A stretch of DNA of 64,000 nucleotides, taken from the IMG/VR virus record IMGVR_UViG_3300042691_031247; one strand, 5' to 3'. This DNA comes from a virus. Lineage: Duplodnaviria > Caudoviricetes. Numbering within the stretch: the first letter of the stretch is position 1; each line of letters opens with the position of its first letter. The notes beneath the pieces were generated by a model, which was not told where the DNA came from, ran no database searches, and saw nothing but the letters and a program-made list of their open reading frames with translations. Both the position numbers and the translations under genes were made by a program. Below are positions 14,755 to 30,004 of the stretch, in pieces.

Positions 14755-14786
14755 TAGATATGCCGTGTTTTTGGCAGATATTTAGC
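14755..14786 (-). promoter_or_regulatory. conserved promoter-like motif, copy 6
   Basis: GCTAAATA-N16-CATATCTA. Confidence 0.75.
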
Positions 14787-16986: not shown

Positions 16987-17218
16987 TGGTCAACTCCTGT
17001 GGCTTACAGACGACAAATTTATCAACGCCGGGCAGAATGTTTAATGTTCTGCCGTTGTCCCACTTGACGCCAATTTGGTGCCATTCTGCCGGACCCTCCA
17101 GCGAGAGATATACGATTGTCCCTTTCAATCCTGCCGGCATACCCTCTTCAACCGGAATTATTTTCGAGTCCGGGTTTGTCATGGGCGCCAGCAATTCGAT
17201 TCGATCGCCGATTTTCAA
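16973..17218 (-). CDS. DUF4314-like protein
   Basis: GDRIEL..M..P.....G.KGTI......QIGVKWDNGRTLNIL.G.D. Confidence 0.7.
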   Translation of the reverse strand: MKIGDRIELLAPMTNPDSKIIPVEEGMPAGLKGTIVYLSLEGPAEWHQIGVKWDNGRTLNILPGVDKFVVCKPQELTNVAE

Positions 17219-17239
17219 CGGATGTGCCTTTCAAAAAAA

Positions 17240-17530
17240 AGAAAAACCGGGCGGGTCGATTTACGCCCCCGACCCTATAGCCCAAGACTAGCTGCAGCTC
17301 TTCTTGGAACTCCCCCACGTCGGCAGCACGCCACGAGATTCCCCGCAGCGGTATCCGAAGGCAAGGAGTACCCGGTTAGACAACGGCGCGCTCAGGTATG
17401 CTAGCTGGCGCTGGATATAGGACTTTGGGCTCGGGCATACCAATCCACCCTAGTTTCCCGGAGTTCTTGGCCGGCAAGTGACGGCTGTTACTCCTTCGTC
17501 CCCGTTGTTGTTCGAGACCCGGCTGTTAAT
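17240..17530 (-). ncRNA. putative structured ncRNA of unknown class, downstream of the tmRNA
   Basis: no credible ORF; several 6-8 bp long-range helices, including crossing pairs; ends in a U-rich tract. Confidence 0.55.
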
Positions 17531-17621
17531 TCAGCAATCTTACCCGTTGAAAGATAAGACGCGGACGCAATGCCGCGGTGTTAATTCACTTCACTACCCG
17601 ATGAAGGATAGTTCCGGGCTA

Positions 17622-17966
17622 TGGAGGCGGCGGGAGTCGAACCCGCGTCCAGAGATATCTCCAGAAAGAACGTCTACGTGTGTAGGCAGTTGTTGTTTAC
17701 ACTCCTGCCAAAGTTAGCCGATTATCGGCGTCAGGTGGGCTACCACCATCTTGCCCTTTCTCGCCGGGCCAGATCAGCCGATTATCGGCGTCAACCTGAT
17801 TGGGCAATAAGGCTCAGGTCGCCTCACCCACTGGCCTATTAACTAGGCAGCGAGGGCCGGAGCAAAAGCGCCAGCTAGAAACGTAATCGGCTTTTAACGT
17901 GGCCAACCGATCAACCACGACACGCAGTCCTAACCTTCCTTATCCTGTCGAAACCAGTACGCCCCC
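17622..17966 (-). ncRNA. ssrA: tmRNA; tag (A)GAFAPALAA
   Basis: 5' GGGGGCG...TTCGAC, 3' GGTTCGACTCCCGCCGCCTCCA with G3-U70, PK1, and tag ORF at 17843-17872. Confidence 0.95.
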
Positions 17967-18078: not shown

Positions 18079-18152
18079 TAACCCGGGTGGGAGTCGAACC
18101 CACAACAAGTAGATCCTAAGTCTACCGCCTCTGCCAGTTGGGCTACCGAGTT
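18079..18152 (-). tRNA. tRNA-Leu(UAG) with an atypically short variable loop
   Basis: cloverleaf folded by hand; anticodon loop CT-TAG-GA; no encoded CCA. Confidence 0.85.
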
Positions 18153-18158
18153 GCGCAT

Positions 18159-18231
18159 TGACCCCACGGGGATTCGAACCCCGGTAAACGGAACGAAAAT
18201 CCGTTGTCCTAGGCCACTAGACGATGGGGCC
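18159..18231 (-). tRNA. tRNA-Glu(UUC)
   Basis: cloverleaf; anticodon loop TT-TTC-GT. Confidence 0.9.
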
Positions 18232-18240
18232 ATTGTCGTC

Positions 18241-18462
18241 TCAGTCTACCTTCTCGACGTTTAGCGCGATAAGAAAACCACACATCTGGGCAAATGTGAT
18301 CAGCTGCTTCTCTTTGAGTTTGAAGAAATCTGCAAAGTGAGTAAACAGATCACAAGGCGACAGATCTGTCGGGTTTTGCGTTTCACGCAATTTAGATATC
18401 AATTCGGCTGCTCGTTCTAGAGTCATCTTGCTATTCCTTCGTGTAAAGATAACAGAACTCAT
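18241..18462 (-). CDS. small hypothetical protein
   Basis: fills the gap between tRNAs; start could be the internal MTLERA after AAGGA. Confidence 0.55.
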   Translation of the reverse strand: MSSVIFTRRNSKMTLERAAELISKLRETQNPTDLSPCDLFTHFADFFKLKEKQLITFAQMCGFLIALNVEKVD

Positions 18463-18487
18463 TGGGCCGCCAAGGAGTCGAATCTTG
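18463..18487 (-). pseudogene. tRNA 3'-half remnant (T arm plus acceptor strand)
   Basis: CAAGA-TTCGACT-CCTTG-GCGGCCC-A with no matching 5' half nearby. Confidence 0.5.
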
Positions 18488-18536
18488 CGTTTTTGTTGTC
18501 TTCCAACTACACTGCGTTATTCCAAACGGAGGTTTT

Positions 18537-19031
18537 ATGCGCTGCGTCAATTGCAACATAGAGACAACAAATCCGCGTTTTTGTGGTCGCTCGTGTTCGG
18601 TTAGTTACAACAATCGCCGCGCGCCAAAAAGAAAAAAACAAACACAAGCGTGTCCAAATTGTTTAACCCAATTTTTTAAACGCGTAAACAGCAATCAAAC
18701 GTTCTGCAGCGTTCAATGCCGCAAAACAAATTACTGCGCAAAAATTACTGCGGCTGGTCGTTTTGATATTAACGGCCAACCCAGCAGCGTAACTGTGCGC
18801 AAGTTTTTAATTGTTACGTCCGGCAATATCTGCACTGTTTGCGGTCAAACCGGTAACAACTGGCGCGGTCAGCCATTGACGCTAATTGTTGACCACATGG
18901 ACGGAAACGCCCGCAACTGGAAAATTGAAAACATTCGACTTGTGTGTCCAAATTGCGACAGCCAGCTACCCACGTTTAAAGGTAGAAACAAAGGTAAAAG
19001 CACACGCAAATACACAATCATTCAACGCTAG
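18537..19031 (+). CDS. HNH homing-endonuclease-like protein with N-terminal Zn fingers
   Basis: CTVCG...LIVDHMDGN..N..IENIRLVCPNCDSQ; GGAGG before ATG at 18537; antisense to the tRNA array. Confidence 0.9.
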   Translation: MRCVNCNIETTNPRFCGRSCSVSYNNRRAPKRKKQTQACPNCLTQFFKRVNSNQTFCSVQCRKTNYCAKITAAGRFDINGQPSSVTVRKFLIVTSGNICTVCGQTGNNWRGQPLTLIVDHMDGNARNWKIENIRLVCPNCDSQLPTFKGRNKGKSTRKYTIIQR

Positions 19032-19132
19032 TACGCCCGCAGGGAATCGAACCCCGACCTACAGGTAATCAGCCTGTATCCTTTCGGACCGAGAATATAA
19101 GTCTCGTGTGCTAACCGTTACACCACGGGCGC
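19032..19132 (-). tRNA. tRNA-Ile(UAU), 101 nt, with a second anticodon-like arm (GAU) in the variable region
   Basis: canonical acceptor, D and T arms; arm 1 CGAGA-CTTATAT-TCTCG; extra GTCC-GAAA-GGAT and ACAGG-CTGATTA-CCTGT. Confidence 0.8.
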
Positions 19133-19202
19133 ATATCTCGCGTGGGCGGGGCGCCAGCAGCTTGGGCTACTGCCAGCGCCCCGCCGTCAGCGAGTCTACG
19201 CT

Positions 19203-19565
19203 TCAGCGGTAGCGTTTGCACGCGTACCACCGGCCATCCCTGCCACGCGCGACCCCTTGGTCTACAACCGCTCTGCCGCTATTGCTATAGCAGCAGTTTC
19301 CCAGCGCCTGCTCGGGCGTTGAGCCCATGCCGACGCCTTCGTAACCGGCGTTGCCGCCGTGATGTCCCATGCGGCCATTGCTAGCCTGCAGCTCAGCTAC
19401 GCCCTGTGCCGTAGACGTATGCCCGGCGTAAGAACTAGCGTAGGAATAGGACTTCACTGGAACCTGCGCCTGAGACGGCGTGTAAGACCGACGGTGCCGC
19501 GGGGCAGCATGCGCAACGCTGACCAGCGAAAGAGCGACGGCTACACACATGAGAAAACGGAACAT
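19203..19565 (-). CDS. secreted small Cys-containing protein (planctomycete-type)
   Basis: signal peptide; EGVGMG.T...A..NCC...QGVA.G.DGRWYACKRY; GGAGG RBS. Confidence 0.75.
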   Translation of the reverse strand: MFRFLMCVAVALSLVSVAHAAPRHRRSYTPSQAQVPVKSYSYASSYAGHTSTAQGVAELQASNGRMGHHGGNAGYEGVGMGSTPEQALGNCCYSNSGRAVVDQGVARGRDGRWYACKRYR

Positions 19566-19632
19566 AACGATCCTCCGTGACCCCGCTGCTGGTGTGCGCA
19601 GCGTGAAAACAAACAAGCCCCACACCGGGCAG

Positions 19633-19706
19633 TAGGCGCAAAGGGACTCGAACCCCTAACCCCCTGCGTGTAAAACAGGTGCTCTGACCAATTGAGCTAT
19701 GCGCCT
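19633..19706 (-). tRNA. tRNA-Val(UAC)
   Basis: cloverleaf; anticodon loop TT-TAC-AC. Confidence 0.92.
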
Positions 19707-19712
19707 GCGAGA

Positions 19713-20069
19713 CTACGCCGCGCGCTCTCGCTCGCGGCGTTGACGCCGACGAGCCCACGGAGACCGGTTCCAGTACCAGCCCCGCCAGCGATTGCAATAC
19801 GCACGCCAGCGCCGACGCAACTTGTGATACCACTTGTTGCGGCCGATGCCGGTGAGGTAATGCTGCGTCCAGAATTCCATCGACTCGTCTGACGTACCAT
19901 CCACGTAGCTTTCGCTGCAGTCGAAGCAACGGTTTGCCGGCACACGATACATAGGAACTTTGTGCATTGTTCCATCAATGCGCATCGTCACGACGTCGTT
20001 GAACTCAACCGCTTCGATACGACCGCCGCAGTGAATGCACTTTAACGACTTGTAAACCGGATTACCCAT
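19713..20069 (-). CDS. YgiT/MqsA-type zinc-finger protein
   Basis: CIHCGG...VPANRCFDCSESY; GGAGG RBS. Confidence 0.7.
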   Translation of the reverse strand: MGNPVYKSLKCIHCGGRIEAVEFNDVVTMRIDGTMHKVPMYRVPANRCFDCSESYVDGTSDESMEFWTQHYLTGIGRNKWYHKLRRRWRAYCNRWRGWYWNRSPWARRRQRRERERAA

Positions 20070-20081
20070 ACAGCCCTCCAA

Positions 20082-20167
20082 TGGCCAAGGCGGGACTCGA
20101 ACCCGCACGGGAAATTACTCCCAGCGGATTTTAAGTCCGCTGCGTCTGCCAATTTCGCCACTTAGCC
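20082..20167 (-). tRNA. tRNA-Leu(UAA)
   Basis: cloverleaf with a long variable arm; anticodon loop CT-TAA-AA. Confidence 0.93.
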
Positions 20168-20176
20168 AGCCGCCCG

Positions 20177-20488
20177 CTAGACCAGTGCGGGCTCTTGCGG
20201 AGCCGGATACTGCTCGGGATGCGCTATGTGACGAAAACGATCCTTTCCCGTCTTACTGTGCGTCCCGAACATGTCACGGCGGTGCATCGTCTGTTCAACC
20301 GCCTCAAACGCTTGCTTCAATCGCAGAAACTGCGAGTAAGTCATTGAAAAAGCGTCTGGTTTTTGCGGACTCTCCATATTCCACGGCATACTGTTGAGCA
20401 CTTCGGCCAGCTTTCGCAGCTCAATTGGCAACCGGTCGTTGTAGTACTCCGCCATGCTCTCGAATTCATCGCGTTCTTGTGTCGCCAT
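20177..20488 (-). CDS. hypothetical protein
   Basis: GAGG upstream of MATQERDEF. Confidence 0.6.
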   Translation of the reverse strand: MATQERDEFESMAEYYNDRLPIELRKLAEVLNSMPWNMESPQKPDAFSMTYSQFLRLKQAFEAVEQTMHRRDMFGTHSKTGKDRFRHIAHPEQYPAPQEPALV

Positions 20489-20699
20489 TCCAGACGTACC
20501 TCTTGTCACCAATTTGACACCACCACCGCTGCCCATCGTTCCAGTAGACGGGAGTCACAGACGGAGATGGGGGCTGCAGCGTTGTCGGCGCGGGATGCGC
20601 CTTCTGATACTCTTCATAGCTCTGCCAAGCGATCCCCGCAAGCATCAGCAACGCCGTCACCAAACCAATCACGTTTCCCTTGATCTCGATACCCTTCAT
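20466..20699 (-). CDS. small membrane-anchored protein
   Basis: AAGGAGG RBS; N-terminal transmembrane segment. Confidence 0.65.
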   Translation of the reverse strand: MKGIEIKGNVIGLVTALLMLAGIAWQSYEEYQKAHPAPTTLQPPSPSVTPVYWNDGQRWWCQIGDKRYVWNGDTRTR

Positions 20700-20748
20700 T
20701 TCAAAACCTCCTTGTTTGGAAATGACCTTTGAACAACCAATCGAACAA

Positions 20749-20821
20749 TGGGCCCTGTGGGACTCGAACCCACGACCAAAGGATTAAAAGTCCCTTGCTC
20801 TACCAACTGAGCTAAAGGCCC
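20749..20821 (-). tRNA. tRNA-Lys(UUU)
   Basis: cloverleaf; anticodon loop CT-TTT-AA. Confidence 0.93.
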
Positions 20822-21801: not shown

Positions 21802-21836
21802 GAAATATGCCCGGATATTGCCAAAAATTTAGGCAA

Positions 21837-29959: not shown

Positions 29960-30004
29960 AAAAAAAGACCCGCCGAGTGAGCATCGTTGAGAGGCCCGGC
30001 GGGT
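29960..30004 (-). terminator. intrinsic terminator ending the fibre operon
   Basis: acccgccg/cggcgggt stem followed by T7 on the minus strand. Confidence 0.7.

What the first reader, a model, noticed from the sequence alone, without database searches (positions are those of the whole stretch)
17240..17530. Second unassigned structured RNA with crossing helices, directly 3' of the tmRNA
Seen: ends pair (17518-17524 with 17245-17251). Long-range helices are 17363-17370/17489-17496 (8 bp) and 17307-17313/17460-17466 (7 bp), which cross as a pseudoknot. Others are 17395-17401/17435-17441, 17274-17279/17416-17421, 17280-17285/17425-17430 and hairpin 17253-17275. There is a U-rich 3' end and no ORF. 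Established: large phage ncRNAs such as GOLLD and ROOL sit beside tRNA clusters. Inference: a new or diverged member of such RNAs, or a ribozyme.
Basis: partly seen in the sequence, partly recalled or inferred. Interest (0 to 1): 0.75.

Follow-up and report, generated by a model that had tools for sequence, protein, structure and literature searches.

The report
New folded RNA trailing phage tmRNA
Just after the ribosome-rescue RNA (tmRNA) gene of this uncultivated ~200-kb lake phage lies a real, conserved gene for a two-domain folded RNA of about 275 bases. It matches no catalogued RNA family, its last stem doubles as the operon's terminator, and its function is unknown.

Summary

- **Location:** it is on the minus strand at about 17508 to 17233, as the last gene of a unit running promoter motif, ORF, six tRNAs, tmRNA, then this RNA.
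- **Homologues:** nine distinct copies exist, all in ~200-kb freshwater phage contigs and all downstream of a tmRNA.
- **Support for the fold:** 19 of 71 base pairs keep pairing through changes on both sides, against 5.5 ± 1.7 in shuffles.
- **Domain 1:** a junction closed by ACAACGG/CCGUUGU, whose two hairpin loops kiss. Two compensatory changes in one relative support the kiss.
- **Domain 2:** a four-way junction whose closing stem abuts the U-tract.
two are confirmed, one is undecided and four are not conserved.
- **Known families:** Rfam 15 gives no match in three diverged copies. It is not GOLLD, ROOL, RNase P, Y RNA or a known riboswitch.
- **Function:** unknown. My best guess is a stable RNA released from the tmRNA 3' trailer and acting in trans. 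A conditional terminator is the main rival.

First readers of this scan noted the same RNA in sister genomes, without follow-up.

The parts
17233..17508 (-). Whole RNA 'X' as inferred: from the 5' strand of closing helix P0 to the U-tract
   Evidence: The covariance model R1 built from the homologues matches 17232-17464 at 269 bits, once in the 198-kb genome. The P0 5' strand was found upstream in all nine copies.
17502..17508 (-). P0 5' strand, ACAACGG. It closes domain 1.
   Evidence: It pairs with CCGUUGU at 17380-17386 in all eight copies tabulated. L005 and L049 carry G-C to U-A at the seventh pair.
17460..17494 (-). Variable inserted hairpin (GGAGU...ACUCC) between P0 and P1
Evidence: It is present only in the window and L003. 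Other copies have different inserts or only about 5 nt here. The MFE fold forms it.
17419..17459 (-). P1 hairpin in three segments: 17457-59/17419-21, 17452-53/17423-24 and 17447-50/17427-30. Its 16-nt loop L1 has the kissing strand GUAUGC at 17435-17440.
   Evidence: There are four pairs with compensatory changes, for example GGG/CCU to AAA/UUU and GGGU/NCCC to GGCC/GGCC in L004.
17388..17411 (-). P3 hairpin (17405-11/17388-95). Its 9-nt loop L3 has the kissing strand GCAUAC at 17396-17401.
   Evidence: Three pairs show compensatory changes. The L1-L3 helix is invariant in eight copies and changes UA to CG at two pairs in L049, in loops that the model left unpaired.
17380..17386 (-). P0 3' strand, CCGUUGU
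17370..17377 (-). P4 5' strand, AACCGGGU. It closes the four-way junction of domain 2.
   Evidence: It pairs with GCCCGGUU at 17245-17252 in 9 of 9 copies. The stem is invariant apart from one U-G to C-G change, so covariation does not test it. The MFE of the single sequence forms it.
17309..17369 (-). Long arm P5-P6-P7 (17360-69/17309-18, 17354-58/17320-24, 17342-50/17329-37), with an invariant GAAU loop
   Evidence: Five pairs show compensatory changes and many show wobble-compatible changes.
17281..17308 (-). P8 hairpin with a UGCA loop
   Evidence: Three pairs show compensatory changes, for example GCUGCAGC to GUUGCAAC.
17253..17275 (-). P9 hairpin with an invariant CGUAAA loop motif.
   Evidence: Two pairs show compensatory changes.
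17233..17252 (-). P4 3' strand (17245-17252) and U-tract (17233-17246), read as the built-in intrinsic terminator
   Evidence: The sequence is and is conserved in all copies. The simple terminator scan did not flag it, because the stem next to the U-tract is long-range. Function is inferred.
17517..17619 (-). Optional 'module 0' between the tmRNA and X: five hairpins closed by GCCCG/CGGGU (17615-19/17517-21), with two repeated double-hairpin units
Evidence: It is present in the window, L003, L049 and L023 only. Five pairs have compensatory changes in L023.
17619..17966 (-). Phage tmRNA (context)
   Evidence: Rfam RF00023 scores 129 bits over the full model. ARAGORN agrees.
21805..21832 (-). 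Copy of the phage promoter-like motif CTAAAT-N17-CATAT upstream of the ORF, tRNA, tmRNA and X unit
   Evidence: Regex scan. On the minus strand the next copy downstream of X is at 14758-14785.

Best explanation
X is a gene for a stable, highly structured non-coding RNA of about 275 nt in this phage (230-280 nt in relatives). It lies on the minus strand as the last gene of the phage's tRNA-tmRNA transcription unit.

Shown:
- It folds into two domains. Domain 1 is a junction closed by helix P0, whose two hairpins P1 and P3 are tied together by a 6-bp loop-loop (kissing) helix.
- Domain 2 follows 1-3 nt later. It is a four-way junction with no linker at three of its four helix junctions, and its closing stem P4 runs straight into a U-tract.

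Inferred:
- X has no promoter of its own and is transcribed with the tmRNA.
- Its 5' end is made by the endonucleolytic cut that matures the CCA-less tmRNA 3' end.
- Its 3' end is made by termination at P4 plus the U-tract.
- The released RNA then acts in trans, most likely as a specific binding partner (scaffold or decoy) for a host or phage protein or for the translation or RNA-processing machinery. It does not act by long antisense pairing.

The function itself is a guess. The gene, the strand, the fold and the operon position are well supported.
For: Homologues and fold:
- Nine distinct homologues were found (window, L001-L005, L023, L033, L049). All lie in ~200-kb phage contigs, and all lie downstream of a full tmRNA.
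- On the model-fitted alignment, 95.3% of cells are paired. Nineteen of 71 pairs have changes on both sides, against 5.5 +/- 1.7 in shuffles (0 of 500) and 0-4 when partners are slid.
- A plain MAFFT alignment of eight copies gives the same picture: 14 pairs against 4.6 +/- 1.5.
- The kissing helix covaries in L049, in loops the model did not constrain.
- P0 is kept in all nine copies, with G-C to U-A in two.

Strand and coding:
- 66 G-U cells give 96.6% pairing on the minus strand against 84.8% on the plus strand.
- There is no coding signal.

Selection: the X core is more conserved than the neighbouring tmRNA. Mean pairwise identity is 84% against 75%, and the window against L001 is 90% against 65%.

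Co-transcription:
- In L004 the P0 strand starts 2 nt after the tmRNA discriminator, and in L002 only a few nt after it, so there is no room for a promoter.
- Neither the tmRNA nor any of the six tRNAs encodes CCA.
- The phage promoter motif sits upstream of the unit at 21805-21832.

Independence as a module: the spacer to the tmRNA varies from 2 to about 590 nt, with an ORF inserted in L005. The first gene downstream also differs between genomes.

Copy number: one copy per genome.
Against: - There is no expression data. No RNA-seq run holding this phage was listed, so transcription, ends and stability are all inferred.
- P4, the terminator stem, is invariant, so covariation does not test it. 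The simple terminator scan did not call it.
- All nine copies come from one narrow phage clade, so the link to the tmRNA may be inheritance rather than function.
- In L005 an ORF lies between the tmRNA and X, so the 5' end cannot always come from tmRNA processing.
- No partner protein is indicated. Neighbouring genes are of unknown function (DUF4314 and unnamed families). The phage has no SmpB, Ro60/TROVE or CCA-adding enzyme.
- Genes start 14 nt after the U-tract and have no recognised promoter. This fits a cis-regulatory terminator at least as well.
Confidence: 0.5

Rival explanations
1. X is a cis-acting conditional terminator (an attenuator or riboswitch-like element). Domain 1, or the whole fold, senses a signal such as a metabolite, an uncharged tRNA or tmRNA, or a protein. 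That signal decides whether P4 plus the U-tract stops RNA polymerase or lets it read into the DUF4314 gene block.
For: - The next gene starts 14 nt after the U-tract (TTG at 17218), and all downstream genes run in the same direction.
- No copy of the phage promoter motif lies between X (17233) and 14785, and no sigma-70-like site was found on that strand. So about five genes seem to depend on read-through.
- The DUF4314 gene family follows X in all nine genomes, directly in three of them.
- Domain 1 has the junction-plus-kissing-loops architecture that I recall from several riboswitch aptamers.
Against: - In six of nine genomes an unrelated gene is inserted between X and the DUF4314 gene.
- The junction strands of domain 1 are poorly conserved and tolerate inserts of 5-44 nt, which is unlike a ligand pocket.
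- I found no conserved alternative (anti-terminator) pairing.
- A 125-nt four-way junction inside the terminator stem is unlike known expression platforms.
- No riboswitch or T-box model matches.
- The phage may use other promoter classes that I cannot recognise.
Confidence: 0.22
2. X is a passive 3' end module of the RNA operon. It is a terminator plus a compact fold that blocks 3' exonucleases and helps orderly processing of the tRNA-tmRNA precursor, and it has no life of its own after cleavage.
For: - It always sits at the 3' end of the RNA gene array and ends in the terminator.
- In some genomes it starts 2 nt after the tmRNA.
I did not test that note.
Against: - Simple protection needs only a stable hairpin.
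- Here, loop and junction nucleotides (GAAU, CGUAAA, UGCA, the AAA bulge and the kissing loops) are invariant or covary.
- The element is also better conserved than the tmRNA it would protect.
Confidence: 0.13
3. X is a ribozyme, for example self-cleaving at its own 5' border or acting on tRNA or tmRNA precursors.
For: - It has a compact multi-junction fold with a tertiary kissing contact and invariant unpaired nucleotides.
- It sits among RNAs that all need 5' and 3' processing and lack encoded CCA.
Against: - No ribozyme family matches, including RNase P, hammerhead, HDV-like, twister and hatchet models in Rfam 15.
- The RNase P-like string AAAGUCC is not conserved: L004 has AAGCUUU there.
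- The variable spacers of 2-590 nt argue against a role in defining the tmRNA 3' end.
Confidence: 0.06
4. X is an antisense regulator of the tmRNA. Its P3 region pairs with the tmRNA resume-codon region.
For: In the window, L003 and L002, 12 nt of X (AGCGCCAGCUAG) are perfectly complementary to tmRNA positions 89-100. That stretch spans the 6 nt before the resume codon plus the first two tag codons. Only 1 of 200 shuffles reached 12 nt.
Against: - The match is absent in L001, L033, L023, L004 and L005, whose tmRNAs carry a different tag region while X P3 is unchanged.
- It is lost in L049, whose tmRNA is 98% identical to the window's while P3 has changed.
- The segment lies inside helix P3.
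Confidence: 0.03

Closest known systems
Phage T4 RNAC and RNAD (small stable RNAs from the T4 tRNA gene region)
   Same: They are non-tRNA RNAs encoded within or at the end of a phage tRNA gene cluster on the same strand. Their function is unknown despite long study (PMC3014915; PMC9697503).
   Different: - BLAST of this region against 50,697 phage records found only tRNA and tmRNA matches, so there is no detectable sequence similarity.
- X is larger, has two domains with a kissing loop and a four-way junction, trails a tmRNA (from my own knowledge, T4 has none), and carries the operon terminator.
- Processing of X is not shown.
GOLLD and ROOL (large ornate RNAs, often in phages or prophages near tRNAs)
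   Same: X is an orphan, elaborately folded phage non-coding RNA next to tRNA genes. Its function is unknown and it has palindromic loops (UGCA, CUAG).
   Different: - No match to any Rfam 15 model.
- X is about 230-280 nt, against roughly 600-800 nt from memory.
- X has a narrow distribution: nine sequences in one clade.
Junction aptamers held by loop-loop contacts (purine and lysine riboswitch type) followed by a terminator
   Same: Domain 1 is a junction whose two hairpins are joined by base-paired loops, and a terminator follows.
   Different: - The junction strands are variable and tolerate inserts.
- The terminator stem encloses a 125-nt four-way junction.
- No alternative pairing was found, and no riboswitch model matches.
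- The architectural comparison is from my own knowledge and was not tested.
tRNA-like cloverleaf elements (tmRNA tRNA-like domain, YrlA Y RNAs, viral TLS)
   Same: Domain 2 has cloverleaf topology. It has a closing stem, three arms, a 5-nt linker before the last arm, and the last arm stacked directly on the closing stem. It also sits among tRNAs.
   Different: - It has no T-loop or D-loop signature and no CCA. Its arms are 62, 28 and 23 nt.
- tRNA, tmRNA and YrlA models do not match it.
- The phage has no Ro60/TROVE gene.
- ARAGORN's 'permuted tmRNA' call across X in L001 and L047 looks spurious.

Membership tests
GOLLD / ROOL (Rfam) | Match to the family covariance model | tested here: not met
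   cmscan of Rfam 15 at E <= 10 on the window, L005 and L049 copies gave only noise, with E values of 2-8 against unrelated snoRNA, miRNA and viral models.
GOLLD / ROOL (Rfam) | Size of several hundred nucleotides (about 600-800, from memory) with many conserved helices | tested here: not met
   X is 230-280 nt from P0 to the U-tract.
GOLLD / ROOL (Rfam) | Frequent location beside tRNA genes in phages or prophages | tested here: met
   X follows six tRNAs and a tmRNA in all nine genomes.
tmRNA (standard or two-piece) | tRNA-like domain plus tag reading frame; match to RF00023 or permuted models | tested here: not met
   The RF00023 match ends at 17619, before X. The weak RF04321 hit (23 bits) is the real tmRNA's T-arm plus spacer.
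RNase P RNA | Match to the bacterial, archaeal or type-T models, with conserved P4 strands (CR-I GGAAAGUCC, CR-V) | tested here: not met
   No Rfam match. AAAGUCC at 17419-17425 is replaced by AAGCUUU in L004.
Bacterial Y RNA (YrlA type) | Rfam match, and a Ro60 (TROVE) gene in the same genome | tested here: not met
   No Rfam match. PF05731 is absent from the 97%-complete phage genome.
Known riboswitch or T-box classes | Match to an aptamer model; conserved junction core; mutually exclusive terminator and anti-terminator | tested here: not met
   No Rfam match. The junction strand between P0 and P1 varies from 5 to 44 nt. No conserved alternative pairing was found by inspection.
Intrinsic (Rho-independent) terminator | G+C-rich stem directly followed by a U-tract | tested here: met
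   An 8-bp stem AACCGGGU/GCCCGGUU is followed by U5-C-U8 in 9 of 9 copies. The stem is long-range, so the simple scanner missed it.
Intrinsic (Rho-independent) terminator | Actual termination of transcription | not testable with these tools
   No RNA data were available.
Stable RNAs of phage tRNA operons (T4 RNAC/RNAD kind) | Encoded in the tRNA gene cluster on the tRNA strand, and non-coding | tested here: met
Stable RNAs of phage tRNA operons (T4 RNAC/RNAD kind) | Co-transcribed with the tRNAs and accumulating as a discrete processed RNA | not testable with these tools
   Only indirect evidence: a 2-nt spacing to the tmRNA in L004, and a promoter motif only upstream of the unit.

The most novel reading that the evidence does not exclude
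X is the founding member of a new class of phage riboregulator or catalytic RNA that acts on the translation-rescue or tRNA/tmRNA-maturation machinery. It might, for example, bind or mimic a substrate of SmpB, EF-Tu, RNase Z/P or the CCA-adding enzyme. Phages would carry it together with their own tmRNA to take over ribosome rescue.
Probability: 0.12. Interest if true: 0.8.

Novelty: new variant of a known kind. Interest (0 to 1): 0.5.

Why it matters
- **An old open question.** Phage tRNA clusters have long been known to carry extra stable RNAs of unknown role; T4 RNAC and RNAD remain unexplained. X is a well-supported new example, with a defined two-domain fold and a tertiary contact backed by covariation. 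It is more conserved than the tmRNA beside it, so selection acts on X itself.
- **An unusual terminator.** The stem next to the U-tract encloses a whole four-way junction, and a gene block with no promoter I could recognise follows directly. This makes X a concrete test case for structured-RNA control of termination.
- **A link to tmRNA.** If X acts on ribosome rescue or on tRNA/tmRNA maturation, it would show how large phages that carry their own tmRNA use it.
- **Limits.** The family is narrow (nine sequences from uncultivated lake phages), there is no expression data, and thousands of candidate phage structured RNAs have already been catalogued (PMC10690425).

Tried and rejected
- **Rfam:** gathering thresholds on the whole window, and E <= 10 on X in three diverged copies, gave nothing.
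- **BLAST against 50,697 phage records:** only tRNA and tmRNA hits.
- **Pattern scans:** four of IMG/VR, one of JGI metagenomes and one of GTDB genomes returned only this clade. The extras were chance matches, or a copy of the L001 phage contig binned into a MAG.
- **Model R1 elsewhere:** no match in five more distant relatives, which also lack a tmRNA. Only one of the five is near-complete. No match in 130 other genomes of that MAG's phylum.
- **Paralogues:** none in the phage's own genome.
- **Antisense pairing to the tmRNA resume codon:** a 12-nt match occurs in three genomes. It is not conserved in five others and is lost in L049.
- **Complementarity to the phage tRNAs:** 8 nt or less, within the range seen for shuffled X against the tmRNA.
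- **Expression:** no RNA holder was listed by the look-up of sequencing runs, so I did not lay reads.
- **Published catalogue:** the supplementary tables of the IMG/VR structured-RNA catalogue (PMC10690425) are not held, so I could not check whether X is already among its 8,495 candidates.
- **RNA duplex folding of X against the tmRNA:** timed out.
- **SmpB, Ro60/TROVE and CCA-adding enzyme genes:** absent from the phage.
- **Pfam and PHROGs on neighbouring genes:** only DUF4314 and families of unknown function.
- **Coding reading:** rejected.
- **Plus-strand RNA:** rejected.

Full report
**Setting.** The window is part of a 198-kb, 97%-complete IMG/VR phage record. Around the finding, every gene is on the minus strand.
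- Rfam and ARAGORN place a full tmRNA at 17619-17966 and tRNAs at 18079-20821.
- The next ORF downstream starts at 17218.
- The finding therefore covers the roughly 400 nt between the tmRNA 3' end and that ORF.
- A copy of the phage's own promoter-like motif (CTAAAT-N17-CATAT) lies at 21805-21832, upstream of a 240-aa ORF and the tRNA array. On this strand the next copy downstream is at 14758-14785.

**Checking the observation.** So are the hairpin, the U-rich end and the absence of a gene. A single sequence proves little, though.
- The count of perfect 7-mer complements is 7, against 3.0 ± 2.3 in shuffles.
- The folding energy is ordinary, with z = -0.97 on the minus strand and -0.32 on the plus strand.
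- The question had to be settled with relatives.

**Relatives.**
- A neighbouring 204-aa protein led to five syntenic phage contigs that carry the region at 80-98% identity.
- Pattern scans of IMG/VR, JGI metagenomes and GTDB genomes added L023, L033 and the more diverged L049.
- They also returned a duplicate of the L001 phage contig inside a MAG bin.
- That makes nine distinct sequences. Those with long contigs come from phage genomes of about 194-205 kb. The only sequencing runs listed for this stretch are lake-water samples.
- Every copy lies downstream of a full tmRNA.
- Five more distant relatives have neither a tmRNA nor X, but only one of those records is near-complete.
- Model R1 finds one copy in the phage's own genome, and none in 130 other genomes of the phylum of the MAG that holds the phage contig.

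**The fold.** Conservation starts at ACAACGG (17508-17502) and runs to the U-tract (17246-17233). Helices were derived with RNAalifold and by inspection. I then counted them on a model-fitted alignment of nine copies and on an independent MAFFT alignment of eight.
- Nine copies: 95.3% of cells paired. Nineteen of 71 pairs changed on both sides, against 5.5 ± 1.7 in shuffles (0 of 500) and 0-4 for slid partners.
- Eight copies, MAFFT: 14 pairs against 4.6 ± 1.5.
- 66 G-U cells make the fold 96.6% paired on the minus strand and only 84.8% on the plus strand.

*Domain 1.* P0 (ACAACGG/CCGUUGU, 17502-08/17380-86) closes a junction that carries P1 (17447-59/17419-30) and P3 (17405-11/17388-95).
- P0 is kept in all nine copies, and L005 and L049 change its seventh pair from G-C to U-A.
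- Between P0 and P1 the genomes carry anything from 5 nt to a 44-nt hairpin.
- The loops of P1 and P3 pair with each other (GUAUGC 17435-40 with GCAUAC 17396-401). This helix is invariant in eight copies.
- In L049 both loops changed, and two U-A pairs became C-G with the register kept. The covariance model had left these columns unpaired, so the alignment was not fitted to this helix.

*Domain 2.* It starts 1-3 nt after P0.
- P4 (AACCGGGU/GCCCGGUU, 17370-77/17245-52) closes a four-way junction.
- Its arms are the long arm P5-P7, hairpin P8 and hairpin P9.
- There is no linker nucleotide except 5 nt (YUAUA) between P8 and P9.
- P4 runs directly into U5-C-U8.
- P5-P9 all show compensatory changes. 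P4 is invariant.

- Two are right: the GGUAUGC/GCAUACC pairing (the kiss) and hairpin 17253-75 (P9).
- CCUAUA/UAUAGG (17416-21/17274-79) is 93% paired across copies but no better than shuffles. It overlaps P1 and P9. It remains a possible tertiary or alternative contact.
- GCCCAA/UUGGGC competes with P1 and P8, which covary, and breaks in several copies.
- The 8-bp and 7-bp helices said to form the pseudoknot use the variable hairpin 17460-94, which exists only in the window and L003.
- The 'ends' pairing uses 17518-24. That segment is the 3' strand of the stem closing a separate module.

**An optional extra module.** In the window, L003, L049 and L023, about 103 nt (17517-17619) sit between the tmRNA and X.
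- They form five hairpins closed by GCCCG/CGGGU.
- Two double-hairpin units are repeated within it.
- L023 has five compensatory pairs.
- The other five genomes lack this module.

**What X is not.**
- No Rfam 15 family matches any of three diverged copies at E <= 10. That rules out recognisable membership of GOLLD, ROOL, tmRNA, RNase P, Y RNA, T-box, riboswitch and small ribozyme families.
- The phage has no SmpB, Ro60 or CCA-adding enzyme gene.
- X is not coding.
- A 12-nt antisense match of P3 to the tmRNA resume-codon region exists in three genomes. It is absent from five others, and it is lost in L049 although that phage's tmRNA is 98% identical to the window's.

**How it probably works.** The points below are inference built on what is shown.
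- In L004 the P0 strand begins 2 nt after the tmRNA discriminator, and in L002 only a few nt after it. X therefore cannot have its own promoter there and must be transcribed with the tmRNA.
- None of the phage tRNAs, nor the tmRNA, encodes CCA. Each must be cut at or just after the discriminator before CCA is added. The same cut would free the 5' end of X or of module 0.
- P4 plus the U-tract would make the 3' end.
- The spacer to the tmRNA varies (2 to about 590 nt, with an ORF in L005), and so does the first gene downstream. X behaves as a self-contained module.
- X is more conserved than the tmRNA beside it: 84% against 75% mean pairwise identity, and about 90% against 64-65% for some pairs. 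Its invariant positions lie in loops and junctions. That pattern suggests a specific partner rather than a passive hairpin.
- I therefore favour a stable trans-acting RNA of unknown target. This is the situation of T4 RNAC and RNAD, which come from the T4 tRNA region and still have no known role (PMC3014915, PMC9697503).

**The main rival.** The next gene starts 14 nt after the U-tract, and no recognisable promoter lies between X and 14785. So about five genes, the DUF4314 block that is conserved after X in all nine genomes, seem to need read-through. X could then be a regulated terminator.
- Against this, unrelated genes are inserted after X in six genomes.
- The junction of domain 1 is loosely conserved.
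- I found no alternative pairing.
- Only experiments can separate the two readings.

**Earlier notes of this scan.** First readers of sister genomes flagged the same RNA, and none of those notes was followed up. They named the P0 pairing, the GGTATGC/GCATACC crossing, the AACCGGG/CCCGGTT closure and the idea of release by tmRNA 3' processing. I had reached P0 and the kiss independently before reading them, and I tested them here.

**Verdict.** X is a real, new, narrowly distributed phage RNA family with a well-supported two-domain fold. Function is open. Interest is moderate.

Noticed in passing
window 17517-17619 (-): An optional ~103-nt structured module lies between the tmRNA and X. It has two repeated double-hairpin units (loops YYUCAWC and AAUUAA) around a central hairpin, all closed by GCCCG/CGGGU. 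It is present in four of nine genomes, and L023 has five compensatory pairs. The motif CA(A/U)CGGG recurs three times, including in the P0 strand of X, which hints at an origin by duplication.
   Followed up: partly
window 17619-17966 (-) and tmRNAs of L001, L004, L005, L023, L033: The clade carries at least two tmRNA types with different tags. The window type reads GGC GCU UUU GCU CCG GCC CUC GCU GCC UAG, giving GAFAPALAA. L001, L004, L005 and L033 read GNTLAIAA. The two types are only about 64-65% identical, while X next to them stays 80-90% identical. ARAGORN's 25-residue tag for the window looks like a wrong frame choice.
   Followed up: partly
window 17401-17412 (-) against tmRNA 17867-17878 (-): X helix P3 and its loop have 12 nt of perfect complementarity to the tmRNA resume-codon region. 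This occurs only in the window, L003 and L002. It is probably chance or lineage-specific.
   Followed up: yes
It lies upstream of the 240-aa ORF and the tRNA-tmRNA-X unit. No copy lies between X and 14785.
   Followed up: partly
window 18079-20821 (-) and 17622: None of the six tRNA genes, nor the tmRNA gene, encodes the 3' CCA. The phage has no CCA-adding enzyme gene, so all must rely on host 3' processing and CCA addition.
   Followed up: partly
window 19032-19132 (-): Rfam calls a 101-nt tRNA here (53.9 bits) that ARAGORN misses. An earlier follow-up in this scan treated it as a two-armed tRNA-Ile.
   Followed up: no
window 29968-30003 (-): There is an Rfam abiF RNA motif match (RF03085, 44.6 bits, above its gathering score) in the phage genome.
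   Followed up: no
L001 4798-5496 and L047 1277-1975: ARAGORN calls a 'permuted tmRNA' (tag AGSDGEAGI) that spans X and its flanks. It lies downstream of, and next to, the real standard tmRNA found by Rfam and looks like a false positive.
   Followed up: partly
L049 4237-4500 (-): X is a mosaic in this genome. The tmRNA and module 0 are about 98% identical to the window's. Domain 1 of X is strongly diverged, with new P3 and kissing loops and an L005-type P0, while domain 2 resembles the L001/L033 type. This suggests recombination inside the RNA gene.
   Followed up: partly
L047 (GenBank RGVZ01000259.1, a 5.2-kb contig): A fragment of the L001-type phage carrying tRNAs, tmRNA and X is binned into a bacterial MAG. 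This is either a binning artefact or a hint at the host. No other genome of that MAG's phylum carries X.
   Followed up: partly
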